Positions 863-44,593 of a stretch of DNA of 64,000 bases are shown piece after piece (position 1 is the stretch's first letter; the number at the start of each line of letters is the position of its first letter). Under the pieces are notes generated by a model, which saw only the letters and a list, made by a program, of their open reading frames with translations, was not told where the DNA came from and made no database searches. The position numbers and the translations under genes were made by a program. Origin of the DNA: Lytechinus pictus (taxonomy: Eukaryota); assembly GCF_037042905.1 (NCBI RefSeq), contig NC_087245.1, positions 17,300,001-17,364,000 of the forward strand, read 5' to 3'.

Positions 863-899
863 TTCGAAATACTACTCAACGGTCTTTCGTGAAGAACAC

Positions 900-2150: not shown

Positions 2151-2560
2151 GCTATGTCGAAATGGTGCTGGCGGTGCCGGCACCACAAACCTTTAAGGGT
2201 GATTTTAGTCAGGCCCCCAAAAAAACATAAGAACATATTGACAGTGAAAGAGAGAAAGAAAGATGGAGAATTGCAAAATAAGAGAGAGGAAGAAAACGAA
2301 GAAGAGTAGAGGGAAAAAAACAGATCGAAAAATAGAGAGAAGGAAAAATATTTATGAAAAAACGAAGAAAAGAAAAAAACCCGGAACAGTCTCGAAAAGT
2401 CTAAAATTTTGTTTCAAATTATGTCCGTCAGAAAACCATCCGAATTTGCGGGGTTTTTTTCTTTTGCTCTCTCCTACACACAAACGGTAAGCAATCTAGC
2501 ACACAATGTGATGGGCATTATTTTTTACTTTCCCCCGAAATGGGGGATTAGATTCAAATT

Positions 2561-2903: not shown

Positions 2904-3889
2904 CGGCCCCTCGAGCTCTGGGAGGAATCAAGTGTGGCTCTGGAAGCTCGTCCTAAATCGGATATATCGCTGTTACCATAGTAGCAACCAGAATTTTGCA
3001 TACGAAACGCAGATTGAATGTTTCCGTCGCGGATGCGAAACGTAAAAAAAAATTCTCATGTCACACAACTTGCATTGCAGGACAGTGTTTTGCGTCGGGC
3101 CCAAAAGTCTCTTCCAAAATCAATATACCGTCGTAAAGTCCGTCCGCGTTGCACAGCGAAAAGTGGGAAATGAGAACATATTGACGATCAGACAACTTTC
3201 TAATCTTGGCGATTCTGCTATTATCCGGGACCTATTCGTCTTTGATTCGGGGAGCTCCCCGGATCAGAGACGAATAGGTTCCAAATCCACCGAATAAGGC
3301 CATATTTGGGCAGAATCTGTACAAATCTATTCTGGAAAATTCGGTGTTGGTGTAACCCTGGATCTATGTAATACTGAATTCAATCAGAATCATTAAATGC
3401 CGATAGTTGATTAATTTATTTTTCAAGACCATATAACATGCAGTTAATTTTACATTTTAATTCGACAATGGGTATTTATATATTTTTCATACTGGAATCC
3501 ACATTTGCATTTTTATACAAATTTACATTATTCGTCAACATAACATCCTACAATTATTGTAGGTGTATATAATTCTATTCCAATATATTCATAATATGTT
3601 AAATTTTCCTGTATATTCGAAGTGTGTTTTAATATACATTCTCAGAGCGTTTGATATGTTTGGGCTCATTCGTCAGCCCAACGAGAACATGTTCATGCTT
3701 ATAACTTTTACTGCGTAATCTAAGAGATATATATTTTCCAACTGCAATCGAAAATTATTAACGTACTCCGAATCCAATACGCACAAAGGCCTCTGGAATT
3801 CGAACAAGATTGCGAACTAGAGTAATTGTGAATATATTCGGCAACCTCATGTATCTCCTACAAATTTCAGGTGGCTTAAAATAGGAAAA

Positions 3890-4706
3890 CAAGGCAAAAG
3901 CAATTTTGTGTCTCGCCCACTTGTGAAAATAACCAGAAATATCGTGATTTGCGAGGGCACTCAACAGAATTGTATCGAAACTTCATTGTGAAATGACTGG
4001 GATGGAATAAAACTTGTCATAAAAGTCTTGCAAGTAAACTTAAAGAACCTTTGACTTTACCATGTGACTTCTGACTGCAGCACAACATGCAGGTCGCCTA
4101 AGTCCATCTACCATTCAAGTTTGGTTGAAAAGTTACTTACGGTTGCGGATTTAGGTGTCGTAAGAGAGTATTGCATGTTAACTTTAACGTTTGCCTAAAA
4201 ATGACCTTTGACCTTACCATGTGACCTCAGACTGCAGCATAACATGCAGGTCTCCCAAGTCCATCTACCATCCAAGTTTGGTTGAAAAGTGACTTACGGT
4301 TGCAGAGTTAGGTGTCATAAGAGAGTCTTGCAAGTAAACCTCAACGTTGACCTGAAAATGACCTTTGACCTTACCATGTGGCCTCCGACTGAAGCATAAC
4401 ACGCAGGTCCCCCAAGTCCATCTACCATCTAAGTTTGGTTGAAAAGTGACTTACAGTTGCGGAGTTAGGTGTCATAAGAGAGTCTTGCATGTAAACTTTA
4501 ACGTTGACCTGAAAATGACCTTTGACCTTACCATGTGACCTCCGACTGTAGCATAACATGCAGGTCACCCAAGTCCATCTACCATCCAAGTTTGGTTGGA
4601 AAGTGAATTACGGTTGTGGAGTTATGTGTCATAAGGTTTGTGACGGACGGACGACAGACGACATTTGGATCCCTAAGTCTCGCCTTCACCTCTGGTGGGA
4701 GAGACA
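3890..4706 (-). mobile_element. Non-autonomous Helentron/DINE-like element with internal 157-bp tandem repeat (~4 copies, 4050-4640) and short (GACG)n microsatellite
   Basis: Subterminal inverted repeat tgtctcgcccac (3909) / gtgggagagaca (4695). Terminal hairpin gtctcgccttcacctctggtgggagagac. Inserted in an A/T run. Empty site in unit B at 13861-13880 (ataggaaaaaagtggg). Repeat starts at 4050, 4207, 4364, 4521. Confidence 0.8.
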
Positions 4707-5530
4707 AAAAGTGGGCTTGTATTGGATTAGTGAGAAAAGTTTATAAGAAAAGAGGGGAATCCCATTGGGATATTAATGTCAATAACAATCAAAGACGCTA
4801 TCAACATCAACAGTTATTTCAGCGATATTTCAGTACCACTTACCACCCCCACTACGAAGTCATATATTGGAAAGGGCTCAATTTTAATAAATTACATACA
4901 CTTGTTAAGGGATTGCTTTTTCTAGATACGCCACTGTATTGCTGGATGTTCAGTGGGTTCAAGGACTAGCCGAGTCAACTTCAAGGACATTCTTGCAATT
5001 TGAAATTCCCTCCCGAATATCGGCGGTGTTTCTGTTTATATTACGGCAACATCTCCTTGATTCTAGCTGATTTCGAATAAGTATAAAGGGCGTGATAATG
5101 TCATTCTTCCATTCTGATCTACATGAAGATCACAATGCCGTTGACTAGCAAAAGTCTTAGACAGCTGAGTAAAGTTTGTTTGCGTGCCATCAGCTATATA
5201 TTCCTTCCAAATAAATATACAAATATCGTTTCAGTATTCTTTAGTAGATATCATAAATTAATATACTATCACTAAAAGAATCCAGTAAGATGTAATCATT
5301 GTCGTGTGTGTCTAAAATGCACAGAAGGGCTGACCGGTAACTTGATCTCCCGGAGACTAATTGAAAGAGATTCATTCTCGTGTCCATGTAATAATAATAA
5401 TAATAATAGGCATTTATATAGCGCCATCTATCTATCTACATACTACAGCTGGTTACTAATTCATAGATACGTATTATTCTAATGTGTATCGGCGATTTAG
5501 ATTATTATGAATAATTAGATGTGTGTCGCT

Positions 5531-7267
5531 CTATAGTGACTCCCGGAAGATGTAGAGTCTGTCTGGAGTACAGAAAGCTATCTCCCCACTCTCGAATGTT
5601 TGGAGAAAGTACCACATTCTTTTCGAGATTTGAAAGTGAAAGTCACTGATGATGATTTTCATCATTTTGAGCTCACTTGTATAAAGACAGATGTTTGCAA
5701 CACCTTCCTTATGGTTAACCCATGCAATGAGAACCGTGTCATCAGTGCACAAACATGGGAATCCAGAGAGGTCTTCTTTGGTGACGCTATGCAGGATGGT
5801 TCCTGATATGCTGTCGACCACCCTTATTGCATTTAAGTCTCTAACCAAGATCTTGTTGCATGTCGAAAATGAGAAGATCTGCTGAGGTTCGTATTCATCA
5901 CACTTTATCTTTCTGATTGGCATCCCACCTTCTGCATCGAACACGTGTATCTCTTTTAGTTTCCTGTAACCGATGAAAATGTGACCATCTATATCCCGTG
6001 CAAAGCCACCCATGCCACCCTCCACATTATCCAGTGAGCCAAATATGAGGGCAAGTTTCTTACATTTTGGGGTATAGAGAGTGATAATGTTATTTTCACC
6101 TTTCCGTACAATATAGCAGCCATCTGGCCTATATTGTAAGCCCCGAACTAAAACATTCAGCAGAACTCTATCTTGTAATGTACCATTAGCAGAATATGTG
6201 ACTATTCCTCCTGCATGGCAACCAACGGATATGTCGTTGTTTGGAGATACTGCTAAACTATCCATACTATTAGATGTTGGTAGCTGCTTGTCTGCCACCA
6301 ATCTCCATTGTTTTCCTCGGCGAACGCAGCCCAGGATATTTCTGGCCGTTCGGTTGTCGCTTTCAAAGCGAATGCGTTCACTTTGGTGAGTCAATCTTCT
6401 TAGCCCTTCCTGATCAGGTTCTGATTCCTTCAAAAGCTTTTCCAGCTCTTCACAAATGGTTTCGTGTGCTTTCAGAAAAGAGGCTTTCTGCAGGAAACAT
6501 TTTAAACCCCCTCTTACTAGCTCACTAACCTTGTTGATATCTGTCACTTTATGATTAGTGATCTTTTCCATTTCTAGTAATGACGTTTTTATCTTCTTCA
6601 GTTCATTCACAACTTTGCTCTTAAGGAGCTCCTTACGCTCCATCAGCTCTGCAACAGATTTCTCAAAAGCTTGGTTGATGTCGTCATGGAGTTCCTTCTC
6701 TACCTTCTCACATGCTTCCCGTTGTTCAGCTATACAGGCAACGTATTTTTCGATGTCACATATCTTTGTCGCTGCTTTCGCCAACAGTTCATCAACATTG
6801 CTTTTCACGACATCTTTATGGTGTTCAGATTCCATGACCGTGTGTCCCTCCTGTACATGCTCACCAATGCCACACTTGTAGCATATGTACTTCCCGCAGT
6901 TGGCGCAGAAACATTCCTCATCACCATCCATATGTTCATCGCAAGTACAGGGTCTCTTCAATGTAACGTTAGCTCGTTGTAAATCATTGACATTAATTTC
7001 TTTATCGTTCTCAGCCGTTATTACCGCCACCATAGACTGGAATGCTTTGCTCATCGGCAATCCACCAACGTCACCATCTGGAATTGGTGTGGTTTCTCGG
7101 CATACTGGACAGGAGATGTTTTGTTTATCCCGTTGAGAGTTGAGTAGAAACTCTAGACAACCCCTGCAGAAGGTATGGGAGCATGACAGAATTCGATGAT
7201 CCTTCAGAAAGCCCAGGCAGACTGGACACTCTAGATTCCTACCAATAGATTCTCTGAGTGAAGCCAT
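5531..7267 (-). CDS. Tripartite-motif (TRIM/RBCC) E3 ligase-like protein with C-terminal NHL-like beta-propeller, copy A (578 aa, CDS in one exon)
   Basis: RING (CPVC..CSHTFCRGC..CPVC), B-box (CDEH..CFCANCGKYICYKC..EH..H), helical coiled coil at ~aa150-300, then propeller-type blades (SLAVSPNNDISV, FARDIDGHIFIG). Architecture resembles TRIM56/TRIM2/3-like proteins. A splice acceptor (TTCTGTTCCAG|G) lies 8 nt before the ATG. Confidence 0.93.
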   Translation of the reverse strand: MASLRESIGRNLECPVCLGFLKDHRILSCSHTFCRGCLEFLLNSQRDKQNISCPVCRETTPIPDGDVGGLPMSKAFQSMVAVITAENDKEINVNDLQRANVTLKRPCTCDEHMDGDEECFCANCGKYICYKCGIGEHVQEGHTVMESEHHKDVVKSNVDELLAKAATKICDIEKYVACIAEQREACEKVEKELHDDINQAFEKSVAELMERKELLKSKVVNELKKIKTSLLEMEKITNHKVTDINKVSELVRGGLKCFLQKASFLKAHETICEELEKLLKESEPDQEGLRRLTHQSERIRFESDNRTARNILGCVRRGKQWRLVADKQLPTSNSMDSLAVSPNNDISVGCHAGGIVTYSANGTLQDRVLLNVLVRGLQYRPDGCYIVRKGENNIITLYTPKCKKLALIFGSLDNVEGGMGGFARDIDGHIFIGYRKLKEIHVFDAEGGMPIRKIKCDEYEPQQIFSFSTCNKILVRDLNAIRVVDSISGTILHSVTKEDLSGFPCLCTDDTVLIAWVNHKEGVANICLYTSELKMMKIIISDFHFQISKRMWYFLQTFESGEIAFCTPDRLYIFRESL

Positions 7268-7275
7268 CTTGTACC

Positions 7276-7883
7276 CTGGAACAGAAATTTAAAACGATTT
7301 TGAAATAAAAATAGACAAAAACGTACAGCGACGAAATAGTAACAAAACTTGTAGAATATAAAGAGAAAATGAAAGAGAGAGGGGTTAAATATGATTTTAT
7401 TTCTGAATATTATGTCAAAATCTATCACAACATTGGACTTTTGAATAAAAAAAATAAAAAAGCTGAAACTTTTGCTCTCTCGCAACTTTTCATTAAATTT
7501 TCCCAATACGCCATATCTACCCCCTCAACTGCCCTAAAACACCCAGTATTTTCAATGATTCCTTCGGATTATTCCCAAAACTAACCCCCTAATAATCCGT
7601 AAAATCGGAAACACGCATGCGGTACAGATGACCATCTGAGTGGGAATTGGGAGAGGGTGTTGACCTAAATCTCATTTCTACCATTTGTTTAGTAAGTCGG
7701 TAGCTCTACCCCTATTAAAAACGTGATGCACAAGAGTTCCAGTGCGTTGAAACAACGAGGAAGATACTAAAGCATATTGATAGCATGCATGATAGAAAAA
7801 CTTCAAAATAATCTGCAATACCTATGAAATGAAGAAAACACGCATATCTGTTCAAGAGAGTCACCCAATCTGGTGTAGCTTAC
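7276..7883 (-). other. Predicted 5'-UTR intron of TRIM copy A; non-coding exon 1 lies from 7884 upward
   Basis: Minus-strand donor CCGAG|GTAAGC at 7884/7883. Polypyrimidine acceptor ...TTTCTGTTCCAG| at 7276. Both sites are present in copy B. Confidence 0.6.
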
Positions 7884-10744
7884 CTCGGAAACTTCTTTTG
7901 TTAAATGGGAGGAAAACCGAGTAAAAAATCCAACACTCGGGAATCTATAACTGTTCAGTCATGACACACGAATAAGTGTGCTAACATTGCTCAATACGGA
8001 AAACAGAAGCCAACATGATTGCGCAATGTTTTTTTTCTTTCTTTTTTTTCTTTTTGTTGTTTTGTTTATTTGATGTTCCCATGGCGAAGTGGATGATGAA
8101 TATGACAGTGACTCATGACCTACACTGTTTCCATTTCCTTCCTGGCTTGGATTATTTCAGCACATTTTCATAGGATGAGGAGAGTATAGATAGTATGGAT
8201 TAACATACTCCGTTGGTATATAATCTCTTCTCCTATATATGATATGATGGAGAACAGCGAGCTCAGTGGTTAAATTCCCAGTGCATCAATTAAAATCTTC
8301 ACCAAGATTGTACAAGCCCCCAACCTGGACCAAGGGGACGGTTCATTACATTAGTGTTTAGGAAGCTCTGAATGAACTTCAACCATCTTTACCAATGACT
8401 GCACTCAAGCAAGCCAACTGTGTTTAAGTTAAAATTGATATGTACGGATGTTGATATTATTTTACTTAATAGCACAGATTTTTTGGTTTAAATTGTGTAA
8501 TTTGTTTGAAAATACATCATCATATCTTGTCAGGACGGCTTTGCATGTGAAGACAGTCTGCGTTCGCGGAGCGGGGGGGGGGGGGGTCACCGCACTATTT
8601 CGAGACAATCAGAGATGGTTCTCAAAAGGCTGTGCTGTCTCATGTACCAGTTGTTTAATTGTGTTAGTGATATACAACTTTCACAGAAGTAACTGGTTCG
8701 GAATCCTGGGGGGGGGGGGGGCACTTCCATTGACGAGTGGATACCATGCGCGACCATGGGGTCTCGAAAAGCACCCTAAACAAGTATTTTCCATATTCAT
8801 TAAAATGCACTCCTTAACAAGTAATGGCGTGTGAAACCCTACCCTTAACAAGTATTGAAAACAAAACTATACCCTTTGCAAGTATTCCCTGAATTGAACC
8901 CCTAAACAATACAGCGATATTTTATTGTTAGGCTATGTCATGGGTCCGTCGGTCGTCGTTTTTACGTTTACACACCATTTGGTTTAGTACAGCCCCACCT
9001 TCCACACCTCGCGCAAATCGCACTCTAAACACGTAGTGTTGGGGAAAAAGGACATCCTTTATAAAACATTTTAGTCTTTTTTATACCCTCGCAAATTTGA
9101 CCTTAAACGCGTAGCTTTTCCTAGCGATTTTTTTCATCATTTTAGTGTTTTTGACACCCTTATTACGTTACGTACGTAACGTGCCCTATCTTGAAAAAGA
9201 CATCTTTTTACGTGTTATTTTGGTCGCGCATGGTATCCACTCATCAATGTAAGTGACACCCCCCACCCACGCCGGCTGCGAAATTATTTTTCCTTCGAAC
9301 TTTTTGTTCATTGCACATCCGCACTATGATCATTTTACAGATATCCTGAATATTCATTAACATCTCTACCGATGATCGGCAAGATGATGATTTTCCGTGA
9401 TGATTAGTTTCTCGAAAATGATAGTTGAGACATTTTGAAACAGAATTGAGTACGCAGACTCTTCACCGAGCCCCTCACCGAGGTCGTAATTCATTTTGTC
9501 TTCACTTTAGTCCAATTCGTGTGACGTGGGTAGGCATGTGCATTCCATGTGTGTTGTTCTGCTTGATGTATCGCGTGATGCAGATTGTTTGCAATCATAT
9601 ACCTACTAGTAGGTCCATTCCCCAATCGACAAACTTCAAATATACTTATGATTTTTTTTTAATTGCAAATTACAATATCTCTTGCAATGATATCTCTCTT
9701 TCTCTTTGTTTTAATTTTTTTTTCTTCTCCCAATGCCGCATACATGGCATAGGCCTACATTCTCCCTTTCATATGGATGTCGATCGGTATTCCAGCATGG
9801 GGGGGGGGGGGGTGACTGACACAAATATTGATCTCTGTGAGGGATTTTTTAGGGGGTGGCCATTGGCTTTATGAATCTAAATTTCTTAGGGGGCCAGACA
9901 TGGCATGATGATTTTTTTAAAATGTTTATTGCTAGTTGATGAAACTATTCCTTTAAGAAAACATAAGAAACCTATGGATAGAGATATAAAGTAAAAATCC
10001 AGGATAAATGGGAAAGTTCATATTTATGTGGGTTTTTTTTTTATTTACCCCCCTCCGCAGCCCATAAATGCATAGGGTTTTACTCCCTTTCGAGTATCGA
10101 TCTCTGATTTATCTTTTTTTTCAGTTTTCTTCATTCAGGTTCATGATGTAAAATAGTTGAACATACAAAAGTTGATTGTTGATTACCGCTGAACAACACA
10201 CAAATGAGCATGCACACCCACATCACATTATTAATAGTAGATCTACATTGTTCAATTGGACTGACGACAAAATGAATTAGAACTCGGTGGTAACTGTACT
10301 CAATTTTGTTTCAAATTACGTCTTTGACGCTTGATCGAAATGTCATTTAAATGGTTACTATTAAATTCTTCGATAATGTCTAAACTATCATTTTCGAGAG
10401 AATATTTAGCACGGAAAATCACCATCTTGCATGTATGTCTATATATTCATAATATTTATGATATTTGTAAAGTGATCATAGTGCTCGTTTTCAACGAGCC
10501 AAAAGTTCGTAGGAAAAATAATTTGTCCCCCCCCCCCCCCGCTATGTCGAAATGTGATACCTGTAAGGATGATTTTAGTCTGGCCCCCCAAAAAACATAA
10601 AAACATATTGACAGTGAAAGAGAAAAAGAAAGATGGAGAATTGAAAAGTAAGAGAGGGGAAGAAAACGAAGAAGAGTTAAAGGGAAAAGAACAGATCGAA
10701 AAATAGAGAGAAGGAAAAATATTATTTAAAAAAACGAAGAAAAT

Positions 10745-10940
10745 AAAAAAAACCGGGACAGTCTCGAAAAGTCAAAAATTTTGTTTCAAATTATGTCTAT
10801 ATTTTTATGTCAATAGATGTTCTGAAGTCTTATCTTTCAAATGCCATTAAAAATAAGTTTCGTTCATGCTTGAGCGCACATGGTACGTTTTTGTCAGGGG
10901 TTCAAAAAGAGGCTTGCGCCAAATGGCAGAAAATAGCGAG
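10745..10940 (+). mobile_element. Left-end fragment of the Tc1/mariner-type MITE seen intact at 43518-44509; a shorter remnant is at ~2380-2425
   Basis: Shares cgggacagt..ttgtttcaaattatg..tcttatctttcaaatgccatt..catgcttgagcg..ggggttcaaaaagaggcttgcgcc. Confidence 0.75.
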
Positions 10941-13032: not shown

Positions 13033-16000
13033 ATGTCACACAACTTGCATCGCAGGACACTGTTTTGCGACGGGCCCAAAAGTCTCTTCCAAAATCAATA
13101 TACCGTCGTCCGCGTTGCATAGCGAAAAGTGGGAAATGAGAACATATTGACGATCAGACAACTTTCTAATCTTGGCTATTCTGCTATTATTCTGCACCTA
13201 TTCGTCTTTGATTCGGGAAGCTCCCCGGATCAGAGACGAATAGGTTCCAAATCCACCGAATTAGACCACATTCGGGCAGAATCTGTACAAATCTATTCTG
13301 GAAAATTCGGTGTTGGTGTTACCCTGAATTTATATAATACTGAATTTAATCAGAATCATTAAATGCCGATAGTTGATTTATTTATTTTTCAAGACCATAT
13401 ATCATGCAGTTAATTTTACATTTTAATTCGACAAGGGGTATTGATATTTTTTTCATAATGGAATCCACATTTGCATTTGTATACAAATTTACATTATTCG
13501 TCAACATTACATCCTACAATTTGTAGGTGTATATAATTCTATTCCATAGACATTATATTCATAATAATTATGTTAAATTTTCCTGTATATTCGAAGTGTG
13601 TTTAAATATACATTCTCAGAGCGTTTGATATGTTTGGGCCCATTCGTCAGCCCAACGAAAACATGTTCATGCTTATAACTTTTACTACGTAATCTAAGTG
13701 AGATAATTTCCAACTGCAATCGAAAATTAACAACGTACTCCGAATCCAATACGCACAAAGGCCTCTGGAATTCGAACAAGATTTGAACCAAAATTGCGTT
13801 CTAGAGTAATTTTGAATATATTCGGCAACCTCATGTGTCTCCTACAAATTTCAGGTGGCTTAAAATAGGAAAAAAGTGGGCTTCGATTGGATTAGGGAGA
13901 AAAGAGGGGAGTCCCATCGGGATATTAATGTCAAGAACAATCAAAGAAACTATCAACATCAACAATTATTTCAGCGATATTTCAGCACCACTTACCACCC
14001 CTACTACGAAGTCATATTTTTGAAAGGGCTCGATTTTGATAAATTACACTGGTTTAGGGATTGCTTTTTCTAGATACGCCACTGTATTGCTGGATGTTCA
14101 GTGGGTTCAAGGACTAGCCGAGTCAACTTCAAGGACATTCTTGCAATTTGAAATTCCCTCCCGAATATCGGCGGTGTTTTTTTCTGTTTATATTCCGGCA
14201 ACATCTCCTTGATTCTCGCTGATTTCGAATAAGTATAAAGGGCGTGATAATGTCATTCTTCCATTCTGATCTACATGAAGATCACAATGCCGTTGACTAG
14301 CAAAAGTCTTAGACAGATGAGTAAAGTATTTTGCGGTGCCATCAGCTATATATTCATTCCAAAGAATAAGAAGAAAAAAAATAAGAATAAAAAATTCCCC
14401 CATACACAGTTACTTGCCTTTATAAATATACAAATATCGTTCGAGTATTCTTTAGTAGATATCATGAATTAATATATCACTAAAAGACTCCAGTAAGATG
14501 TAATCATTGTCGTGTGTGTCTGAAATGCACAGAAGGGCTGACCGGTAACTTGATCTCCCGGAGACTAATTGAAAGAGGTTCATTCTCGTGTCCATGTAAT
14601 AATAATAATAACTAGATTTTAATTCGTCATGCGGACGAATTAGGTGGTCTGTCATGATTTTTCATTCATTGTCGGCTAATGTTGTATAAAATGAATCCCG
14701 GGAATGAATCATTCAGATATGATTGATAATCTTGATCATAGACATCAAAGGAATAAATTTTGACCATTGCTAAATGTGATTATAAATGTAGTGATGACAA
14801 TCGTGATGATTATAATGATGGTGGTGATAATGCAATATGTTGAATACGAAATAAAGTTAGGAGCACGTAAAATGCCGGCTTAAAAACTCTCCAAAAATCT
14901 CAGACGATTTTACCGAAATTGGCTTTCCAAAATTGCGCAATGAAAGGCGCCTTAATTTTCACAGCAGCTAATTTTTAATCGACAGTTTGATGTTTTTTAT
15001 GCAAATTCTTGTTAAAAATTCTTTGTACTTTGAGCATTTTTTTTTTAATTTCACCCACTGACATTTCACAATGTCAGTGGGTATTAATTTCACAGAATAC
15101 TTGAAAATTCATAGGTGATACTTTTTAAAAGCTAAAATATCTTAAATATTTTTGTTCAAATTTTCTGCTACATTTCAATAGATTTTAATGAGAAGTTTCA
15201 TAATGCTATAATTTCACAGCATTCACCTCAAAACTCATGAGTGATGTATTTGATAAAAGAACCAGATTTTTTTGTAAATGTTTGCCAAATTTCTGAAAAT
15301 TTTTAAACATTTCAAATAATATTTTCCGTCAAAAATTTTCAATATCCATTTATTAATTGTGTATGACTTTGACATTTACTTGAAAATTCTTTCTTGATGA
15401 TTTTTACTGAAAAAAAGTCAGGTAAAAGATTCAAATACTGGCAATTTTCCCGCAAAATTTCGGGAACATGTGTAATTAACTAAATTGCACAATTTTTTCA
15501 TTTCACAGAAGGTACCTGAAAATTTGTTATATGTTATATTAAGTAAAAATGAACAAACAGAAAAAAATCCAGGAATTTCCGCAAAATGTCCGGAATGAAA
15601 ATTTTCAACCCAATAGCGTTTAAATATTGCAGCGATTACTAAAAAATACATAAATGATGTTTTACAATGTTAAAATTGCCCCTTAAAAAGTTCCGGCAAA
15701 ATTACAAAAATTGTCCTACATAAAAAAATGCAAGGCAAGTGGGCTTGAAATTTTCAGGAAGACTGTACAATTGGTTAATAAAACATTTCTCTAAAGAATT
15801 TCTCAAAAATTACGTCCAGAAAAAATTTGCAAAAATTTAAACACATCATAACACATTGATGCTGTGGTCAAAAGTCAAAATTATTCCACGTTATTTGTAG
15901 AGAATTGTCTTCACTATACGATATCAAAATTTGGAAGAAAACTGACCAGTAAAAACGAAGATACGGTCAAGTCATTGACGTTTGTTGCGGAAATATGTAA

Positions 16001-16074
16001 TTTTCACTAATAACTTAAAATTGACGTAATTACAAAATCTCCAAATGAAATATTGAATATATAAAAGAGTGAGA

Positions 16075-19000
16075 AAAAATTTGGGGTCAACGGACTCCCT
16101 GAAGAGCTACAGTGAATTTTATATAGGCATATTTTAGCCCATTTACGCGCGCGTAATGCAAATTTGAATGGACGCGCATTCCCGTATTATTGGTCGTAAG
16201 AGGCTGAATGAGGTATCAAATTAATCAGAAGATAATGAACAATGGAAAGACATGAAAGAAATGATGACTCGAAGATGCATAACGATGGTAGGTGCAAGAA
16301 CGCGCACGCATACCTGTGCGCGCGCAAATTCTTGACATGCTCAAAATGACCAGAAACGTACCCAAACTTGACCACGGTCGATTTGGGGAAATTTAAAATT
16401 TTGACGCGCGCGTACGTGCGCGTCGTGACCTTTGCATGACCTCTGATGATATGTCCTGATGACCTGTCACCTGAACTTGATATGATGCAAATATGGATGA
16501 TTTTTTATGATTAGTTGCGATGATATGATCAATCATTTAATTTTACAAAATGGCGCCTAGATGACGTCATCATGATTTGATAACCTTGAAAAGTTTCCAT
16601 TCCCATGTCCATAATGATGCCCATACATGACATGAAAATCAAGGAAATTGACATGCCCGATTTTGAGATAGAGGTGGACAAAGATTTGGCAATAAAAATA
16701 AAGAAAATTCTGACGAATATAATAGGTGATCTGTCATCTTAATGACAGACCACCTAAAAAGGACCAAAAAAAAAAAAAAAAAAAAAAGGGGGTCCAGCGA
16801 GGTTTGAACCACCGAACCCTGGTATACCAGTCAGGTGTGTTATCCAGTCGGCCACAGTGTGTTCGACAAGCACAGAGAGCAAAATAGGAAACATATTGTC
16901 AACTTGACATTGAATGTACATTCTTGCAATTCCAAATTGGCATGATGACAAAACTCTACAAATTCTAGTTTTGAGAATAGTACAAGCTTTAAAATGAAAC
17001 AGTGGAGATATTGTCTAAAGGATACATTCTAAGCTAAAACATATTGAAAATTTGGCGAGAACAGACCAAGATTTACGGAATTAAAATCAATTTAAATGAC
17101 TGTGGTGACATCATGAAACAGAAAACACTTGTTCTTAGTTCCGACGCCATTTTGATGACGTCACGATGTAATTAAGAGTCAAATGTGGCATGAAATCATA
17201 TCTCCTATTCATACTCTATTCGAATATGAAAAGAAAAATTGGGGTCAACGGACTCCCTGAAGAGCTACAGTGAATTTTATATAGGCATATTTTAGCCCAT
17301 TTACGCGCGCGTAATGCAAATTTGAATGGACGCGCATTCCCGTATTATTGGTCGTAAGAGGCTGAATGAGGTATCAAATTAATCAGAAGATAATGAACAA
17401 TGGAAAGACATGAAAGAAATGATGACTCGAAGATGCATAACGATGGTAGGTGCAAGAACGCGCACGCATACCTGTGCGCGCGCAAATTCTTGACATGCTC
17501 AAAATGACCAGAAACGTACCCAAACTTGACCACGGTCGATTTGGGGAAATTTAAAATTTTGACGCGCGCGTACGTGCGCGTCGTGACCTTTGCATGACCT
17601 CTGATGATATGTCCTGATGACCTGTCACCTGAACTTGATATGATGCAAATATGGATGATTTTTTATGATTAGTTGCGATGATATGATCAATCATTTAATT
17701 TTACAAAATGGCGCCTAGATGACGTCATCATGATTTGATAACCTTGAAAAGTTTCCATTCCCATGTCCATAATGATGCCCATACATGACATGAAAATCAA
17801 GGAAATTGACATGCCCGATTTTGAGATAGAGGTGGACAAAGATTTGGCAATAAAAATAAAGAAAATTCTGACGAATATAATAGGTGATCTGTCATCTTAA
17901 TGACAGACCACCTAAAAAGGACCAAAAAAAAAAAAAAAAAAAAAAGGGGGTCCAGCGAGGTTTGAACCACCGAACCCTGGTATACCAGTCAGGTGTGTTA
18001 TCCAGTCGGCCACAGTGTGTTCGACAAGCACAGAGAGCAAAATAGGAAACATATTGTCAACTTGACATTGAATGTACATTCTTGCAATTCCAAATTGGCA
18101 TGATGACAAAACTCTACAAATTCTAGTTTTGAGAATAGTACAAGCTTTAAAATGAAACAGTGGAGATATTGTCTAAAGGATACATTCTAAGCTAAAACAT
18201 ATTGAAAATTTGGCGAGAACAGACCAAGATTTACGGAATTAAAATCAATTTAAATGACTGTGGTGACATCATGAAACAGAAAACACTTGTTCTTAGTTCC
18301 GACGCCATTTTGATGACGTCACGATGTAATTAAGAGTCAAATGTGGCATGAAATCATATCTCCTATTCATACTCTATTCGAATATGAAAAGAAAAATTGG
18401 GGTCAACGGACTCCCTGAAGAGCTACAGTGAATTTTATATAGGCATATTTTAGCCCATTTACGCGCGCGTAATGCAAATTTGAATGGACGCGCATTCCCG
18501 TATTATTGGTCGTAAGAGGCTGAATGAGGTATCAAATTAATCAGAAGATAATGAACAATGGAAAGACATGAAAGAAATGATGACTCGAAGATGCATAACG
18601 ATGGTAGGTGCAAGAACGCGCACGCATACCTGTGCGCGCGCAAATTCTTGACATGCTCAAAATGACCAGAAACGTACCCAAACTTGACCACGGTCGATTT
18701 GGGGAAATTTAACATTTTGACGCGCGCGTACGTGCGCGTCGTGACCTTTGCATGACCTCTGATGATATGTCCTGATGACCTGTCACCTGAACTTGATATG
18801 ATGCAAATATGGATGATTTTTTATGATTAGTTGCGATGATATGATCAATCATTTAATTTTACAAAATGGCGCCTAGATGACGTCATCATGATTTGATAAC
18901 CTTGAAAAGTTTCCATTCCCATGTCCATAATGATGCCCATACATGACATGAAAATCAAGGAAATTGACATGCCCGATTTTGAGATAGAGGTGGACAAAGA

Positions 19001-22000
19001 TTTGGCAATAAAAATAAAGAAAATTCTGACGAATATAATAGGTGATCTGTCATCTTAATGACAGACCACCTAAAAAGGACCAAAAAAAAAAAAAAAAAAA
19101 AAAGGGGGTCCAGCGAGGTTTGAACCACCGAACCCTGGTATACCAGTCAGGTGTGTTATCCAGTCGGCCACAGTGTGTTCGACAAGCACAGAGAGCAAAA
19201 TAGGAAACATATTGTCAACTTGACATTGAATGTACATTCTTGCAATTCCAAATTGGCATGATGACAAAACTCTACAAATTCTAGTTTTGAGAATAGTACA
19301 AGCTTTAAAATGAAACAGTGGAGATATTGTCTAAAGGATACATTCTAAGCTAAAACATATTGAAAATTTGGCGAGAACAGACCAAGATTTACGGAATTAA
19401 AATCAATTTAAATGACTGTGGTGACATCATGAAACAGAAAACACTTGTTCTTAGTTCCGACGCCATTTTGATGACGTCACGATGTAATTAAGAGTCAAAT
19501 GTGGCATGAAATCATATCTCCTATTCATACTCTATTCGAATATGAAAAGAAAAATTGGGGTCAACGGACTCCCTGAAGAGCTACAGTGAATTTTATATAG
19601 GCATATTTTAGCCCATTTACGCGCGCGTAATGCAAATTTGAATGGACGCGCATTCCCGTATTATTGGTCGTAAGAGGCTGAATGAGGTATCAAATTAATC
19701 AGAAGATAATGAACAATGGAAAGACATGAAAGAAATGATGACTCGAAGATGCATAACGATGGTAGGTGCAAGAACGCGCACGCATACCTGTGCGCGCGCA
19801 AATTCTTGACATGCTCAAAATGACCAGAAACGTACCCAAACTTGACCACGGTCGATTTGGGGAAATTTAACATTTTGACGCGCGCGTACGTGCGCGTCGT
19901 GACCTTTGCATGACCTCTGATGATATGTCCTGATGACCTGTCACCTGAACTTGATATGATGCAAATATGGATGATTTTTTATGATTAGTTGCGATGATAT
20001 GATCAATCATTTAATTTTACAAAATGGCGCCTAGATGACGTCATCATGATTTGATAACCTTGAAAAGTTTCCATTCCCATGTCCATAATGATGCCCATAC
20101 ATGACATGAAAATCAAGGAAATTGACATGCCCGATTTTGAGATAGAGGTGGACAAAGATTTGGCAATAAAAATAAAGAAAATTCTGACGAATATAATAGG
20201 TGATCTGTCATCTTAATGACAGACCACCTAAAAAGGACCAAAAAAAAAAAAAAAAAAAAAAGGGGGTCCAGCGAGGTTTGAACCACCGAACCCTGGTATA
20301 CCAGTCAGGTGTGTTATCCAGTCGGCCACAGTGTATTCGACAAGCACAGAGAGCAAAATAGGAAACATATTGTCAACTTGACATTGAATGTACATTCTTG
20401 CAATTCCAAATTGGCATGATGACAAAACTCTACAAATTCTAGTTTTGAGAATAGTACAAGCTTTAAAATGAAACAGTGGAGATATTGTCTAAAGGATACA
20501 TTCTAAGCTAAAACATATTGAAAATTTGGCGAGAACAGACCAAGATTTACGGAATTAAAATCAATTTAAATGACTGTGGTGACATCATGAAACAGAAAAC
20601 ACTTGTTCTTAGTTCCGACGCCATTTTGATGACGTCACGATGTAATTAAGAGTCAAATGTGGCATGAAATCATATCTCCTATTCATACTCTATTCGAATA
20701 TGAAAAGAAAAATTGGGGTCAACGGACTCCCTGAAGAGCTACAGTGAATTTTATATAGGCATATTTTAGCCCATTTACACGCGCGTAATGCAAATTTGAA
20801 TGGACGCGCATTCCCGTATTATTGGTCGTAAGAGGCTGAATGAGGTATCAAATTAATCAGAAGATAATGAACAATGGAAAGACATGAAAGAAATGATGAC
20901 TCGAAGATGCATAACGATGGTAGGTGCAAGAACGCGCACGCATACCTGTGCGCGCGCAAATTCTTGACATGCTCAAAATGACCAGAAACGTACCCAAACT
21001 TGACCACGGTCGATTTGGGGAAATTTAAAATTTTGACGCGCGCGTACGTGCGCGTCGTGACCTTTGCATGACCTCTGATGATATGTCCTGATGACCTGTC
21101 ACCTGAACTTGATATGATGCAAATATGGATGATTTTTTATGATTAGTTGCGATGATATGATCAATCATTTAATTTTACAAAATGGCGCCTAGATGACGTC
21201 ATCATGATTTGATAACCTTGAAAAGTTTCCATTCCCATGTCCATAATGATGCCCATACATGACATGAAAATCAAGGAAATTGACATGCCCGATTTTGAGA
21301 TAGAGGTGGACAAAGATTTGGCAATAAAAATAAAGAAAATTCTGACGAATATAATAGGTGATCTGTCATCTTAATGACAGACCACCTAAAAAGGACCAAA
21401 AAAAAAAAAAAAAAAAAAAGGGGGTCCAGCGAGGTTTGAACCACCGAACCCTGGTATACCAGTCAGGTGTGTTATCCAGTCGGCCACAGTGTGTTCGACA
21501 AGCACAGAGAGCAAAATAGGAAACATATTGTCAACTTGACATTGAATGTACATTCTTGCAATTCCAAATTGGCATGATGACAAAACTCTACAAATTCTAG
21601 TTTTGAGAATAGTACAAGCTTTAAAATGAAACAGTGGAGATATTGTCTAAAGGATACATTCTAAGCTAAAACATATTGAAAATTTGGCGAGAACAGACCA
21701 AGATTTACGGAATTAAAATCAATTTAAATGACTGTGGTGACATCATGAAACAGAAAACACTTGTTCTTAGTTCCGACGCCATTTTGATGACGTCACGATG
21801 TAATTAAGAGTCAAATGTGGCATGAAATCATATCTCCTATTCATACTCTATTCGAATATGAAAAGAAAAATTGGGGTCAACGGACTCCCTGAAGAGCTAC
21901 AGTGAAATTTATATAGGCATATTTTAGCCCATTTACACGCGCGTAATGCAAATTTGAATGGACGCGCATTCCCGTATTATTGGTCGTAAGAGGCTGAATG

Positions 22001-24862
22001 AGGTATCAAATTAATCAGAAGATAATGAACAATGGAAAGACATGAAAGAAATGATGACTCGAAGATGCATAACGATGGTAGGTGCAAGAACGCGCACGCA
22101 TACCTGTGCGCGCGCAAATTCTTGACATGCTCAAAATGACCAGAAACGTACCCAAACTTGACCACGGTCGATTTGGGGAAATTTAAAATTTTGACGCGCG
22201 CGTACGTGCGCGTCGTGACCTTTGCATGACCTCTGATGATATGTCCTGATGACCTGTCACCTGAACTTGATATGATGCAAATATGGATGATTTTTTATGA
22301 TTAGTTGCGATGATATGATCAATCATTTAATTTTACAAAATGGCGCCTAGATGACGTCATCATGATTTGATAACCTTGAAAAGTTTCCATTCCCATGTCC
22401 ATAATGATGCCCATACATGACATGAAAATCAAGGAAATTGACATGCCCGATTTTGAGATAGAGGTGGACAAAGATTTGGCAATAAAAATAAAGAAAATTC
22501 TGACGAATATAATAGGTGATCTGTCATCTTAATGACAGACCACCTAAAAAGGACCAAAAAAAAAAAAAAAAAAAAAAAGGGGGTCCAGCGAGGTTTGAAC
22601 CACCGAACCCTGGTATACCAGTCAGGTGTGTTATCCAGTCGGCCACAGTGTGTTCGACAAGCACAGAGAGCAAAATAGGAAACATATTGTCAACTTGACA
22701 TTGAATGTACATTCTTGCAATTCCAAATTGGCATGATGACAAAACTCTACAAATTCTAGTTTTGAGAATAGTACAAGCTTTAAAATGAAACAGTGGAGAT
22801 ATTGTCTAAAGGATACATTCTAAGCTAAAACATATTGAAAATTTGGCGAGAACAGACCAAGATTTACGGAATTAAAATCAATTTAAATGACTGTGGTGAC
22901 ATCATGAAACAGAAAACACTTGTTCTTAGTTCCGACGCCATTTTGATGACGTCACGATGTAATTAAGAGTCAAATGTGGCATGAAATCATATCTCCTATT
23001 CATACTCTATTCGAATATGAAAAGAAAAATTGGGGTCAACGGACTCCCTGAAGAGCTACAGTGAAATTTATATAGGCATATTTTAGCCCATTTACACGCG
23101 CGTAATGCAAATTTGAATGGACGCGCATTCCCGTATTATTGGTCGTAAGAGGCTGAATGAGGTATCAAATTAATCAGAAGATAATGAACAATGGAAAGAC
23201 ATGAAAGAAATGATGACTCGAAGATGCATAACGATGGTAGGTGCAAGAACGCGCACGCATACCTGTGCGCGCGCAAATTCTTGACATGCTCAAAATGACC
23301 AGAAACGTACCCAAACTTGACCACGGTCGATTTGGGGAAATTTAAAATTTTGACGCGCGCGTACGTGCGCGTCGTGACCTTTGCATGACCTCTGATGATA
23401 TGTCCTGATGACCTGTCACCTGAACTTGATATGATGCAAATATGGATGATTTTTTATGATTAGTTGCGATGATATGATCAATCATTTAATTTTACAAAAT
23501 GGCGCCTAGATGACGTCATCATGATTTGATAACCTTGAAAAGTTTCCATTCCCATGTCCATAATGATGCCCATACATGACATGAAAATCAAGGAAATTGA
23601 CATGCCCGATTTTGAGATAGAGGTGGACAAAGATTTGGCAATAAAAATAAAGAAAATTCTGACGAATATAATAGGTGATCTGTCATCTTAATGACAGACC
23701 ACCTAAAAAGGACCAAAAAAAAAAAAAAAAAAAAAGGGGGTCCAGCGAGGTTTGAACCACCGAACCCTGGTATACCAGTCAGGTGTGTTATCCAGTCGGC
23801 CACAGTGTGTTCGACAAGCACAGAGAGCAAAATAGGAAACATATTGTCAACTTGACATTGAATGTACATTCTTGCAATTCCAAATTGGCATGATGACAAA
23901 ACTCTACAAATTCTAGTTTTGAGAATAGTACAAGCTTTAAAATGAAACAGTGGAGATATTGTCTAAAGGATACATTCTAAGCTAAAACATATTGAAAATT
24001 TGGCGAGAACAGACCAAGATTTACGGAATTAAAATCAATTTAAATGACTGTGGTGACATCATGAAACAGAAAACACTTGTTCTTAGTTCCGACGCCATTT
24101 TGATGACGTCACGATGTAATTAAGAGTCCAATGTGGCATGAAATCATATCTCCTATTCATACTCTATTCGAATATGAAAAGAAAAATTGGGGTCAACGGA
24201 CTCCCTGAAGAGCTACAGTGAAATTTATATAGGCATATTTTAGCCCATTTACACGCGCGTAATGCAAATTTGAATGGTCGCGCATTCCCGTATTATTGGT
24301 CGTAAGAGGCTGAATGAGGTATCAAATTAATCAGAAGATAATGAACAATGGAAAGACATGAAAGAAATGATGACTCGAAGATGCATAACGATGGTAGGTG
24401 CAAGAACGCGCACGCATACCTGTGCGCGCGCAAATTCTTGACATGCTCAAAATGACCAGAAACGTACCCAAACTTGACCACGGTCGATTTGGGGAAATTT
24501 AAAATTTTGACGCGCGCGTACGTGCGCGTCGTGACCTTTGCATGACCTCTGATGATATGTCCTGATGACCTGTCACCTGAACTTGATATGATGCAAATAT
24601 GGATGATTTTTTATGATTAGTTGCGATGATATGATCAATCATTTAATTTTACAAAATGGCGCCTAGATGACGTCATCATGATTTGATAACCTTGAAAAGT
24701 TTCCATTCCCATGTCCATATTGATGCCCATACATGACATGAAAATCAAGGAAATTGACATGCCCGATTTTGAGATAGAGGTGGACAAAGATTTGGCAATA
24801 AAAATAAAGAAAATTCTGACGAATATAATAGGTGATCTGTCATCTTAATGACAGACCACCTA
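16075..24862. repeat. Tandem array of 1158-bp units (7 full units plus a ~680-bp partial unit), nearly identical
   Basis: Same small ORFs recur at 16187, 17345, 18503, 19661, 20819, 21977, 23136 and 24293. Units differ only by poly-A length and a few SNPs. Confidence 0.97.
16766..16861 (-). ncRNA. tRNA-like Pol III cassette (A box, B box, oligo-T terminator); tRNA-like 3' end at 16788, repeated at ~17946, 19104, 20262, 21420, 22579 and 23736
   Basis: A box TGGCCGACTGG (16854-16844) and B box GGTTCAAACC (16810-16801) at tRNA spacing, followed by ~22 T. Acceptor, D and T stems do not pair, so this is not a functional tRNA. Confidence 0.6.
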
Positions 24863-24998
24863 ATAATGTTAGGCATTTATATAGCGCCATCTATCTATCT
24901 ACATACTACAGCTGGTTACTAATTCATAGATACGTATTATTCTCATGTGTATCGGCGATTTAGATACACAAATTATGAATAATTAGATGTGTATCACT

Positions 24999-26735
24999 CT
25001 ATAGTGACTCCCGGAAGATGTAGAGTCTGTCTGGAGTACAGAAAGCTATCTCCCCACTCTTGAATGTTTGGAGAAAGTACCACTTTCTTTCCGAGATTTG
25101 AAAGTGAAAGTCACTGATGATGGTTTTCATCATTTTGAGCTCACTTGTGTAAAGAGAGATGTTTGCCACACATTCCTTGTTGTTAACCCATGCAATGAGA
25201 ACCGTGTCATCAGTGCACAAACATGGGAATCCAGAGAGGGCTTCCTTGGTGACGCTATGCAGGATGGTTCCTGATATGCTGTCGACCACCCTTATTGCAT
25301 TTAAGTCTCTTACCAAGAGCTTGTTGCTTGTCGATAGTGAGAAGATCTGTTGAGGTTCGTATCCATCACACTTTATCTCTCTGATTGGTATCCCACCTTT
25401 TGCATTGAACACGTGTATCTCTTTTAGTTTCCTGTAACCGATGAAAATGTGGCCATCTCGACCCCGTGCTAAGCCACCAATGCCACCCTTCACATTATCC
25501 AGTGTGTCAAATGACAGGGCAAGTTTCTTACATTTTGGGGTATAGAGAGTGATAATGTTATTTTCACCTTTCCGTACAATATAGCAGCCATCTGGCCTAT
25601 ATTGTAAGCCCCGAACTAAAACATTCAGCAGAACTCTATCTTGTAATGTACCATTAGCAGAATATGTGACTATTCCTCCTGCATGGCAACCAACGGATAT
25701 GTCGTTGTTTGGAGATACTGCTAAACTATCCATGCTATTAGCTGATGGCAGCTGCTTGTCTGCCACCAATCTCCATTGTTTTCCTCGGCGAACGCAGTCC
25801 AAGAGATTTCTGGCTGTTCGGTTGTCGCTTTCAAAGCGAATGCGTTCACTTTGGTGAGTCAATCTTCTTAGCCCTTCCTGATCAGGTTCTGATTCCTTCA
25901 AAAGCTTTTCCAGCTCTTCACAAAGGGTTTCGTGTGCTTTCAGAAGAGAGGCTTTCTGCAGGAAACCTTTTAAACCCCCTCTTACTAGCTCACTAACCTT
26001 GTTGATATATGTCACTTGCTGATTAGTGATCTTTTCCATTTCTAGTAATGACGTTTTTATCTTCTTCAGTTCATTCACAACTTTGCTCTTAAGGAGCTCC
26101 TTACGCTCCATCAGCTCTGCAACAGATTTCTCAAAAGCTTGGTTGATGTCGTCATGGAGTTCCTTATCTACCTTCTCACATGTTTCCCATTGTTCAGCTA
26201 TACAGGCAATGTATTTTTCGATGTCACATTTCTTTGTAGCTGCTTTCGTCAACAGTTCATTAACATTGCTTTTCACGACATCTTTATGGCGTTCAACGTC
26301 CATGACCGTGTGTCCCTCCTGCACATGCTCACCAATGCCACACTTGTAGCATATGTACTTCCCGCAGTTGGCGCAGAAACATTCCTCATCACCATCCATA
26401 TGTTCATCGCACGTACAGGGTCTCTTCAATGCAACGTTAGCTCGTTGTAAATCATTGACATTAATTTCTTTATCGTTCTCAGCCGTTACTTCCGCTACCA
26501 TAGACTGGAATGCTTTGCTCATCGGCAATCCACCAGCGTCACCATCTGGAATTGGTGTGGTTTCTCGGCATACTGGACAGAATATGTTTTGTTTATCCTG
26601 TTGAGAGTTGAGTAGAAACTCAAGACAACCCCTGCAGAAGGTATGGGAGCATGACAGAATTCGGTGATCCTTCAGAAAGCCCAGGCAGACTGGACACTCT
26701 AGGTTCCTATCAATATATTCTCTTAGTGAAGCCAT
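24999..26735 (-). CDS. TRIM (RBCC + NHL-like beta-propeller) protein, copy B (578 aa)
   Basis: Colinear with copy A without indels. About 52 amino-acid differences by manual count (~91% identity). Zn ligands intact. Confidence 0.93.
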   Translation of the reverse strand: MASLREYIDRNLECPVCLGFLKDHRILSCSHTFCRGCLEFLLNSQQDKQNIFCPVCRETTPIPDGDAGGLPMSKAFQSMVAEVTAENDKEINVNDLQRANVALKRPCTCDEHMDGDEECFCANCGKYICYKCGIGEHVQEGHTVMDVERHKDVVKSNVNELLTKAATKKCDIEKYIACIAEQWETCEKVDKELHDDINQAFEKSVAELMERKELLKSKVVNELKKIKTSLLEMEKITNQQVTYINKVSELVRGGLKGFLQKASLLKAHETLCEELEKLLKESEPDQEGLRRLTHQSERIRFESDNRTARNLLDCVRRGKQWRLVADKQLPSANSMDSLAVSPNNDISVGCHAGGIVTYSANGTLQDRVLLNVLVRGLQYRPDGCYIVRKGENNIITLYTPKCKKLALSFDTLDNVKGGIGGLARGRDGHIFIGYRKLKEIHVFNAKGGIPIREIKCDGYEPQQIFSLSTSNKLLVRDLNAIRVVDSISGTILHSVTKEALSGFPCLCTDDTVLIAWVNNKECVANISLYTSELKMMKTIISDFHFQISERKWYFLQTFKSGEIAFCTPDRLYIFRESL

Positions 26736-26743
26736 CTTGTACC

Positions 26744-27303
26744 CTGGAACAGAGATTTCAAACGATTTTGAAATAAAAAATAGACAAAAAATACAACAAA
26801 TTACAACAGTAAAAATAAAAAAAAACTTGTAGAATATAAAGAGAAAGAGAGAGAGGGGTTAAATATGATTTTATTTCTGAATGTTGTGTCAAAATCTATC
26901 ACAACATTGGACTTTTCTTTTCCCAGTACGCCATATCTGCCCCCTCAACTGCCCTATAACACCCAGTATTTTCAATGATTCCTTCGGATAATTCCAAAAC
27001 TAACCCCCGAAAAATCCGTAAAATCGGAAAAACGCATGCGGTACAGATGACCATCTAAGTGGGAATTTGGGGAGGGGGGTGACCTCAATCTCATTTCTAC
27101 CATTTGTTTAGTAAGTCGGTAGCTCTACCCATATTACCAACGTAATGCACAAGAGTTCCAGTTGCGTTGAAACATTGAGGAAGATACTAAAGCATATTGA
27201 TAGCATGCATGATAGAAAAACTGCAAAATTATCTGCAATACCTATAAAATGAAGCAAACACCCATATTTTTTCAAGAGAGTCATCCAATCTGATGTAGAT
27301 TAC
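26744..27303 (-). other. Predicted 5'-UTR intron of TRIM copy B
   Basis: Donor CCGAG|GTAATC at 27304/27303 and acceptor TCTGTTCCAG| at 26744, paralogous to copy A. Confidence 0.55.
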
Positions 27304-27887
27304 CTCGGAAACTTCTTTTGTTAAATGGTAGAAAACCGAGTAAAAAATCCAACAATTTGATTTACAACACTCAATAATCTATAACTGTTCAGTCATGACA
27401 CACGAATAACTGTGCTAACATTGCTCAATACGGAAGACAGAAGCCAACATGATTGCGCAATGTTTTTTTTTAGTTTTGTTGTTTTATTTGATGTTTTGGT
27501 GTTCCCATGGCGAAGTGGATGATGAATGTGACAGTGACTCATGCCCTACACTGTTTCCATTTCCTTCCTGACATGGATTATTTCAGCACATTTTCATAGG
27601 ATGAGGAGAGTATAGATAGTATGGATTAACAGATTCTGTTGGTATATAATCTCTTCTCCTATATATGATATGATAGAGAACGGCGAGCTCAGTGGTTAAA
27701 TTCCCAGTGCATCACTTAAAATCTTCACCAAGATTGTACAAGCCCCCAACCTGGACAAAGGGGACGGTTCATTACATTAGTGTCTGGGAAGCTCTGAATG
27801 AACTTCAACCATCTTTACCAATGACTGCAATATAGCAAGCCAATTGTGTTTATCAATCACAATTGCTTAGGTTTATATTAATATGTA

Positions 27888-44509: not shown

Positions 44510-44593
44510 TATATACATACGTTTAGTATGACTTTGTTGAACATCTGTAATTGCACATGACAGGATATAGATAAGGATAGATATGGATAAAGG

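What the first reader, a model, noticed from the sequence alone, without database searches (positions are those of the whole stretch)
14612..24862. 10-kb Helentron-type element whose 5' terminus is reiterated eight times in a 1158-bp array
Seen in sequence: the insertion is absent from the paralogous site (5381-5420) and has Helitron2/Helentron-type ends (5' hairpin, asymmetric IR, 3' hairpin, CTAG, T-rich target). Every array unit contains the complete 5' terminal hairpin (taggtgatctgtcatcttaatgacagaccaccta), but there is only one CTAG 3' end, on the ~1.46 kb unique part. Each internal junction reads GGACCCCC-(T)~22-GGTCC-TTTT on the minus strand directly before the next 5' end, which could be an alternative hairpin-plus-T terminus. 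Established: Helitron-family elements can seed tandem arrays and satellite DNA. Inference: this is a young satellite arising from a rolling-circle element, either as a concatemer of a 1158-bp sub-element or by later unequal exchange.
Basis: partly seen in the sequence, partly recalled or inferred. Interest (0 to 1): 0.72.

Follow-up and report, generated by a model that had tools for sequence, protein, structure and literature searches.

The report
Composite Helentron with eight left ends
A young rolling-circle transposon beside an animal TRIM gene carries eight near-identical copies of its start end and one stop end, most likely because one element landed in or beside a relative and the repeat so formed then multiplied; this layout is already described in plants and fungi.

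Summary
A 10.25-kb non-autonomous Helentron-type (HLE2/HINE) insertion at 14612-24862 is absent from the paralogous site. It has eight 676-bp cores, each ending in the 5' hairpin, seven spacers and one 3' end. Contigs of an independent run show core and spacer at 9.3 times the depth of the unique part, so it is unlikely to be an assembly artefact.

Most of the 'spacer' is the family's normal internal sequence: diverged relatives read spacer-to-core. The only new junction is a decayed tRNA-like segment plus T22, followed by the next 5' end. The proposed junction hairpin is at chance level (z -0.26).

Best reading: a second element inserted into that T-tract. The pair moved from the outer 5' end to the first 3' end, and the two cores then seeded amplification. 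Variants shared by neighbouring units point to stepwise unequal exchange; an initial rolling-circle burst is not excluded.

Multiple-5'/single-3' arrays and self-insertion are published for plant Helitrons and Fusarium Helitron2. This is a clean new member of a known kind.

The parts
14612..24862 (-). whole composite non-autonomous HLE2 (HINE-like) insertion; both ends abut T on the minus strand
   Evidence: absent from paralogue 5398-5403
14612..14655 (-). single 3' end: 15-bp inverted repeat (14641-14655), 9-10-bp stem-loop, terminal CTAG
   Evidence: shared with other families that diverge at 14653
14656..14855 (-). family 3' subterminal region with a decayed ATG-type microsatellite near 14773-14832
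   Evidence: summed depth 107k and 32k in run X15 against 0.2-3k further in; TRF
14856..16080 (-). B-type internal segment: low-copy, with decayed ~130-bp central repeats and an orphan 13-bp-stem hairpin at 15053-15082
16081..16756 (-). core 1 (676 bp), the 5' part of the complete B-type element; 5' hairpin at 16723-16756
16757..16787 (-). internal junction: T22, GGTCC and a short T run directly before the next 5' end (x7); T-rich HLE2-type target
   Evidence: fold not significant
16789..16867 (-). decayed tRNA-like segment with A box (starts 16854) and B box 44 nt further, followed by the T-tract (x7)
   Evidence: 0 of 3000 shuffled units hold both boxes; ARAGORN calls it only at the 70% threshold; no Rfam tRNA match
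16876..17238 (-). A-type internal segment: native continuation of the core in diverged family members; its far boundary lies somewhere in 16876-16976 (x7)
   Evidence: depth profile and joints
17239..24862 (-). cores 2-8 with six further spacers; 5' hairpins end at 17914, 19072, 20230, 21388, 22546, 23705 and 24862 (outermost)
24999..26735 (-). TRIM-like gene (578 aa, N-terminal RING); its stop lies 137 bp before the element's outer 5' end, same strand
   Evidence: B-box, coiled coil and C-terminal repeats are read from the sequence, not hit by Pfam
5381..5420 (.). empty paralogous site, an AAT microsatellite downstream of the second TRIM-like gene (5531-7267)

Best explanation
A non-autonomous Helentron-type composite, built in three steps. 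Step 1 (inferred): at a donor site a complete B-type element inserted into a T-tract behind a decayed tRNA-like segment lying within, or just behind, the 5' kilobase of an A-type relative in the same orientation. Step 2 (inferred, with published precedent): a partner Rep-helicase started at the outer 5' end and stopped at the first 3' end, moving 'A 5' part + linker + B' as one unit with two 5' ends. Step 3 (partly shown): the two cores are 676-bp direct repeats 1158 bp apart, and recombination between them multiplied the unit, giving n+1 cores and n spacers (8 and 7). At least the later rounds were stepwise unequal exchange or serial duplication. The element has no ORF of 100 aa or more and needs a partner in trans.
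For: The ends match HINE/DINE-1 anatomy (against passages). Diverged copies read spacer-to-core: one X1 contig with 8+8 differences, several X15 contigs, and X23 reads, where 30 of 32 first-mate-plus reads at 17233 carry another base. X15 summed depth is high over the 3' end, core and 16977-17250 (66-327k) but low over the tRNA-like bin (605) and the B middle (0.2-3k). The junction looks like an ordinary 5' insertion junction in a T run. Three of five core variants are shared by contiguous units (6-8, 5-8, 3-4): 1152 of 40320 orders give this, and sequence distance follows array distance (r 0.63, 304 of 40320). Precedent for self-insertion giving several 5' ends and one 3' end: PMC5148889.
Against: No genome is held, so neither the donor site nor an unoccupied linker was seen, and the poly-A junction (16753-16798) was skipped by the read-laying tool. 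Core 1 (B side) is identical to core 2 (A side) over all 676 bp, so the two parents must have had identical cores or been homogenised to the edge. Two of the three shared variants lie 30 bp apart and could be one crossover or a haplotype switch in the assembly. The X1 array carries different alleles in all its laid contigs (16238, 16506, and a 4-base insertion at 16695), which a fresh rolling-circle burst explains at least as simply.
Confidence: 0.58

Rival explanations
1. Same two-5'-end precursor, but the array was made in one rolling-circle event. Recombination between the two cores removed the terminator, the 1158-nt circle was copied as a concatemer and integrated with the 3' part (the model of Xiong et al. 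2016), and only minor exchange followed.
For: The model as summarised in PMC12628747 and PMC8268682 predicts many 5' ends and one 3' end. The window array and the X1 array are each near-uniform for their own alleles, terminal cores included. X1 shows no contig for the left flank, and its word share of 0.81 is close to the 0.83 expected if the flank is absent, so its array may sit at another locus.
Against: One pass over one template gives private variants only, yet 3 of 5 core variants are shared by neighbours. The tool states that a hole in coverage proves nothing. The primary paper was not available.
Confidence: 0.25
2. One reading: the 1158-bp unit is a sub-element with its own cryptic hairpin-plus-T terminus. 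It circularised, rolled, and later gained a true 3' end by template switch to a B-type copy.
For: Each unit ends in a T run directly before the next 5' end. Helentron ends carry variable numbers of T. The tRNA-like arm 30 nt upstream folds weakly as DNA (-4.3 kcal/mol).
Against: The junction stem is at chance level (z -0.26). There is no subterminal repeat at the junction other than the next 5' end. An extra switch to B is needed, which the nested model gets for free.
Confidence: 0.12
3. The array, or its exact unit number and variant pattern, is an assembly artefact.
For: No spanning long read was seen. A left/right split of variants inside unit 5 could be a join of two haplotypes.
Against: X1, which differs from the window at fixed sites, has core and spacer at depth 126.8 and 127.4 against 13.6 for the unique part. 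X12, from another study, holds the spacer-to-core junction with 0 differences while most of the unique part is missing.
Confidence: 0.05

Closest known systems
HINE / DINE-1, non-autonomous Helentrons (HLE2); PMC4067079, PMC7492417, PMC11417382 (passages seen)
   Same: 5' subterminal repeat with nested inverted repeat, 3' copy plus stem-loop, T-rich target, no coding capacity, central tandem repeats (decayed in the B part).
   Different: The amplified unit includes the 5' terminus and not only the centre; the element ends in CTAG, and the microsatellite lies near the 3' end.
Plant Helitron arrays with multiple 5' ends and a single 3' end (Xiong, Dooner and Du 2016; seen only as summarised in PMC12628747 and PMC8268682)
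   Same: The same architecture, and the same proposed substrate of internally repeated 5' ends.
   Different: Described for plant Helitrons, with partly decayed units; here HLE2 ends, an animal host, units 99.7% identical, and signs of stepwise exchange.
Fusarium FoHeli (Helitron2) with multiple 5' termini by self-insertion; PMC5148889 (passages and section 10)
   Same: HLE2-type; several 5' ends with one 3' end; model of starting at the outer 5' end and stopping at the first 3' end.
   Different: Duplications there are typically under 200 bp and mostly repeated once; here 1158 bp, eight cores, with a tRNA-like linker.
HelenXT233 of Xenopus tropicalis; PMC11417382 (passages)
   Same: An animal HLE2 with two left termini in direct repeat.
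   Different: Autonomous, two non-identical termini, no array.
TE dimers expanding by unequal exchange; bioRxiv 10.1101/158386 (passages)
   Same: Double insertion, or shared direct repeats, give a substrate for expansion; n+1 repeats with n interiors as in LTR tandems.
   Different: The passages seen concern P, hobo, Bari1, R1 and LTR elements of Drosophila, not Helentrons.

Membership tests
HINE / non-autonomous HLE2 | short subterminal inverted repeats at both ends | tested here: met
   perfect 15-16-bp pair, 14640-14655 with each 5' end
HINE / non-autonomous HLE2 | 5' repeat palindromic or with a nearby complementary repeat | tested here: met
   15-bp stem, 4-nt loop, z -7.1
HINE / non-autonomous HLE2 | stem-loop after the 3' repeat | tested here: met
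   9-10-bp stem, z -4.0
HINE / non-autonomous HLE2 | insertion between T and T | tested here: met
   T on both sides on the minus strand, outer and internal junctions
HINE / non-autonomous HLE2 | no target-site duplication | tested here: inconclusive
   the target is an AAT microsatellite and the filled site has 3 extra bases against a paralogue about 5-8% diverged
HINE / non-autonomous HLE2 | no coding capacity | tested here: met
   no ATG-started ORF of 100 aa or more in 14612-24862
HINE / non-autonomous HLE2 | autonomous Rep-helicase partner with the same termini | not testable with these tools
   no genome held; Helentron proteins are reported from a sea urchin in PMC4067079
HINE / non-autonomous HLE2 | interspersed copies sharing the termini | tested here: met
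   reads and contigs sharing the 3' end and then diverging; thousands of family contigs in X15; their flanks were not seen
Rolling-circle concatemer (Xiong-type array) | multiple 5' ends, single 3' end | tested here: met
   8 and 1
Rolling-circle concatemer (Xiong-type array) | units copied from one template (private variants only) | tested here: not met
   3 of 5 core variants shared by adjacent units; later exchange could overlay an initial burst
Rolling-circle concatemer (Xiong-type array) | terminator-less circle exists | not testable with these tools
   a circle junction is the same sequence as the tandem junction
Functional tRNA gene (linker segment) | cloverleaf recognised at default thresholds | tested here: not met
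   ARAGORN 0 at default and down to 80%, 1 at 70%; Rfam none
Classical satellite DNA | long stand-alone array free of element ends | tested here: not met
   eight units bounded by intact element ends; about nine per unique part in X1

The most novel reading that the evidence does not exclude
The two-ended composite is active now and regenerates a fresh, uniform array of about 8-9 units at each jump, so that different individuals carry separately born arrays at different loci. This would be terminator-less rolling-circle amplification caught in the act in an animal HLE2, with a Pol III-type A/B-box unit placed just before every internal origin. The allele sets fixed in X1 and in the window, and the missing flank in X1, allow this reading.
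Probability: 0.2. Interest if true: 0.6.

Novelty: new member of a known kind. Interest (0 to 1): 0.32.

Why it matters
The two published routes from Helitron to tandem array (self-insertion followed by unequal exchange, or rolling of a terminator-less circle) are rarely separable in old, decayed arrays. This one is very young, has an empty paralogous site and diagnostic variants, and has a sister array in another data set, so population long reads could decide between the routes. It also places 10 kb and seven A/B-box units 137 bp behind a TRIM-like gene; any effect on that gene is untested. By itself it reveals no new mechanism.

Tried and rejected
Whole-genome BLAST of the parts could not be done: no genome is held.

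Pattern scans for family members found nothing usable: viral contigs 0 and 0, metagenome contigs 0 and 2 loci that share only a short hairpin and are judged chance, genome contigs 0 and 0, phage records none.

Rfam gave only sub-threshold chance hits. Homology between the B middle and the spacer was rejected: 55 of 300 and 211 of 300 shuffles score as well. No other copy of the element lies in the window; only microsatellite-type hits and one 30-bp hit were found.

Of 24 runs listed, 4 were laid; the other 20 are not used as evidence, and no RNA holder was listed. Earlier-findings look-ups by sequence, nearby place and words were blank.

Literature searches. None listed a kilobase-scale 5'-end array of an animal Helentron or a tRNA-like linker in one (0 papers), but the library lacks most subscription papers, including Xiong 2016. 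No supplements were read; those of PMC5148889 (Table S6) and PMC4067079 may hold closer cases.
Full report
Observation. The window holds two paralogous TRIM-like genes of 578 aa on the minus strand, at 5531-7267 and 24999-26735, differing at 77 of 1737 coding bases. Self-BLAST shows the flanks of 14612-24861 meeting at 5398-5403 in the paralogue, an AAT microsatellite. The insertion has eight 676-bp cores and seven spacers with a period of 1157-1159. On the minus strand each core begins with a 15-bp-stem hairpin (z -7.1). The single 3' end has the matching 15-bp repeat, a stem-loop (z -4.0) and CTAG. This is the HINE/DINE-1 layout of PMC4067079, PMC7492417 and PMC11417382 (passages only). No ORF of 100 aa lies inside. 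That the host is a sea urchin comes from earlier scan notes on this genome and was not checked here.

Reality of the array. No genome is held. Of 24 public runs listed I laid four on 14250-17250. In X1 the unique part is one 1490-base contig at depth 13.6 (4 differences, 1 gap), while core and spacer contigs stand at 126.8 and 127.4, a ratio of 9.3. The tool warns that summed depth is no copy number; these are single contigs of one run, so I take the ratio as rough support for about nine units per unique part. X1 differs from the window at fixed sites, so it is probably not the source of the assembly. X12, from another study, holds 610 bases across the spacer-to-core junction with 0 differences while most of the unique part is uncovered. 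No record spans the array, so the exact count of eight is unverified.

Corrected anatomy. The spacer is not one foreign module. Diverged family members read straight from spacer into core. These are one X1 contig (8 differences on each side), X15 contigs with joints at 17227, 17230, 17237 and 17241, and X23 RNA reads, where 30 of 32 first-mate-plus reads at 17233 carry a base other than the array's (the tool shows only the best-supported rows). In X15, whose listed pieces differ from the window by about 7-12%, summed depth is 272k and 107k over the 3' end, 66-327k over the core and 66-118k over 16977-17250. It is only 0.2-3k over 14856-16067 and 605 over 16775-16875. So the common family form is core plus 'A' segment. 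The 'unique' middle is a minor 'B' interior, also joined to the core in X15 (joints 15788 and 15875), with decayed ~130-bp repeats (19 recurrences at 120-140 bp against a maximum of 14 in 300 shuffles). B and spacer are not detectably homologous.

The linker. What remains is 120-200 bp. It holds a decayed tRNA-like segment (16789-16867, minus strand) with A and B boxes 44 nt apart; 0 of 3000 shuffled units hold both, using a recalled consensus applied after I had noticed the segment. ARAGORN calls it only at the 70% threshold and Rfam not at all. It is followed by T22, GGTCC and a short T run, then the next 5' end. In X1 no contig other than the array's covers it. The junction is what an HLE2 insertion into a T-rich target looks like.

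History of the units. Cores differ by 2.0 bases on average (0.30%). Of five variable sites, two are private to the outermost core and three are shared by contiguous units: 6-8, 5-8 and 3-4. Such contiguity arises in 1152 of 40320 unit orders, and sequence distance follows array distance (r 0.63; 304 of 40320). The seven spacers have two private substitutions and two T-tract length variants. A single rolling pass would leave only private variants, so some growth was stepwise. Two cautions apply. The first two shared sites are 30 bp apart and may be one crossover in unit 5 or an assembly haplotype switch. And X1's array is uniform for other alleles: the bases seen in the wider family at 16238 and 16506, and a 4-base insertion at 16695 in 2 of 2 contigs. 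Each array therefore expanded or was homogenised after the lineages split. X1 also shows no contig for the left flank, and its word share (0.81) is near the 0.83 expected without the flank. Its array may lie elsewhere, though the tool says a hole proves nothing.

Mechanism. Shown: ends, empty site, array, family continuity of spacer and core, clustered shared variants. Inferred: a B-type element inserted into the T-tract within or behind an A-type relative; mobilisation from the outer 5' end to the first 3' end; amplification between the two cores, giving n+1 cores and n spacers. I put this, with unequal exchange as the main engine, at 0.58; the same precursor with a rolling-circle burst at 0.25; a cryptic-terminus sub-element at 0.12; an artefact at 0.05. 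The weak point of the best reading is that the B-side and A-side cores are identical to the edge.

Comparison. PMC5148889 (passages and section 10) reports Helitron2 elements with several 5' ends and one 3' end and proposes this self-insertion route, with duplications typically under 200 bp. Xiong et al. 2016 (not held; seen only as summarised in PMC12628747 and PMC8268682) report plant arrays with multiple 5' ends and a single 3' end, made by loss of the terminator through recombination between repeated 5' ends. PMC11417382 describes a frog HLE2 with two left termini, and bioRxiv 10.1101/158386 describes TE dimers growing by unequal exchange (passages). Searches listed no kilobase-scale animal HLE2 case and none with a tRNA-like linker; coverage of subscription journals is poor and no supplements were read.

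Verdict. It works like, and passes every testable structural criterion of, a non-autonomous HLE2; the partner transposase could not be sought. It is a new member of a known kind, useful as an unusually young test case. Interest 0.32.

Noticed in passing
window 3890-4708: A second, unrelated insertion in the 3' flank of the other TRIM-like paralogue, absent at 13871-13873: a 157-bp central repeat x3.8, a GACG-type microsatellite and A/T-run ends, the usual HINE layout. Its end hairpins are not significant (z -0.8 and 0.2).
   Followed up: partly
window 15053-15082: Orphan perfect 13-bp-stem hairpin behind a T run inside the B segment (z -9.2), with no partner repeat in the window beyond chance; possibly the relic end of another element.
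   Followed up: partly
window 46800-46910, minus strand: A tRNA-derived SINE-like head with A and B boxes, only loosely similar to the array's tRNA-like segment.
   Followed up: partly
run X15 against window 14250-17250: 3343 contigs of the family laid in X15 against 48 in X1: the family seems far more amplified in that organism than in the one holding the near-identical array.
   Followed up: no
run X15, joints 16737 to 16700 and 14654 to 14611: Single contigs with short local reiterations of the 5' end and of the 3' end, resembling the short multiple termini of Fusarium elements.
   Followed up: no
window 24862-24999 and 24642: The element begins 137 bp behind the TRIM-like stop on the same strand. 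The first ATTAAA then lies inside core 8 (357 bp from the stop) against 648 bp in the empty paralogue, so the 3' end of the transcript may differ.
   Followed up: no
window 54555-55399: Young two-copy tandem duplication of 422 bp, 99.8% identical.
   Followed up: no
window 36652-38152, 40023-40274, 43516-44511, 45618-51381: Several long inverted-repeat (fold-back or MITE-like) elements and a family of about 550 bp in three copies.
   Followed up: no
window 104-2425 and 8446-10797; 3058-8426 and 13033-27852: The TRIM-like genes lie in a local segmental duplication, 84-95% identical, with several insertion differences.
   Followed up: partly
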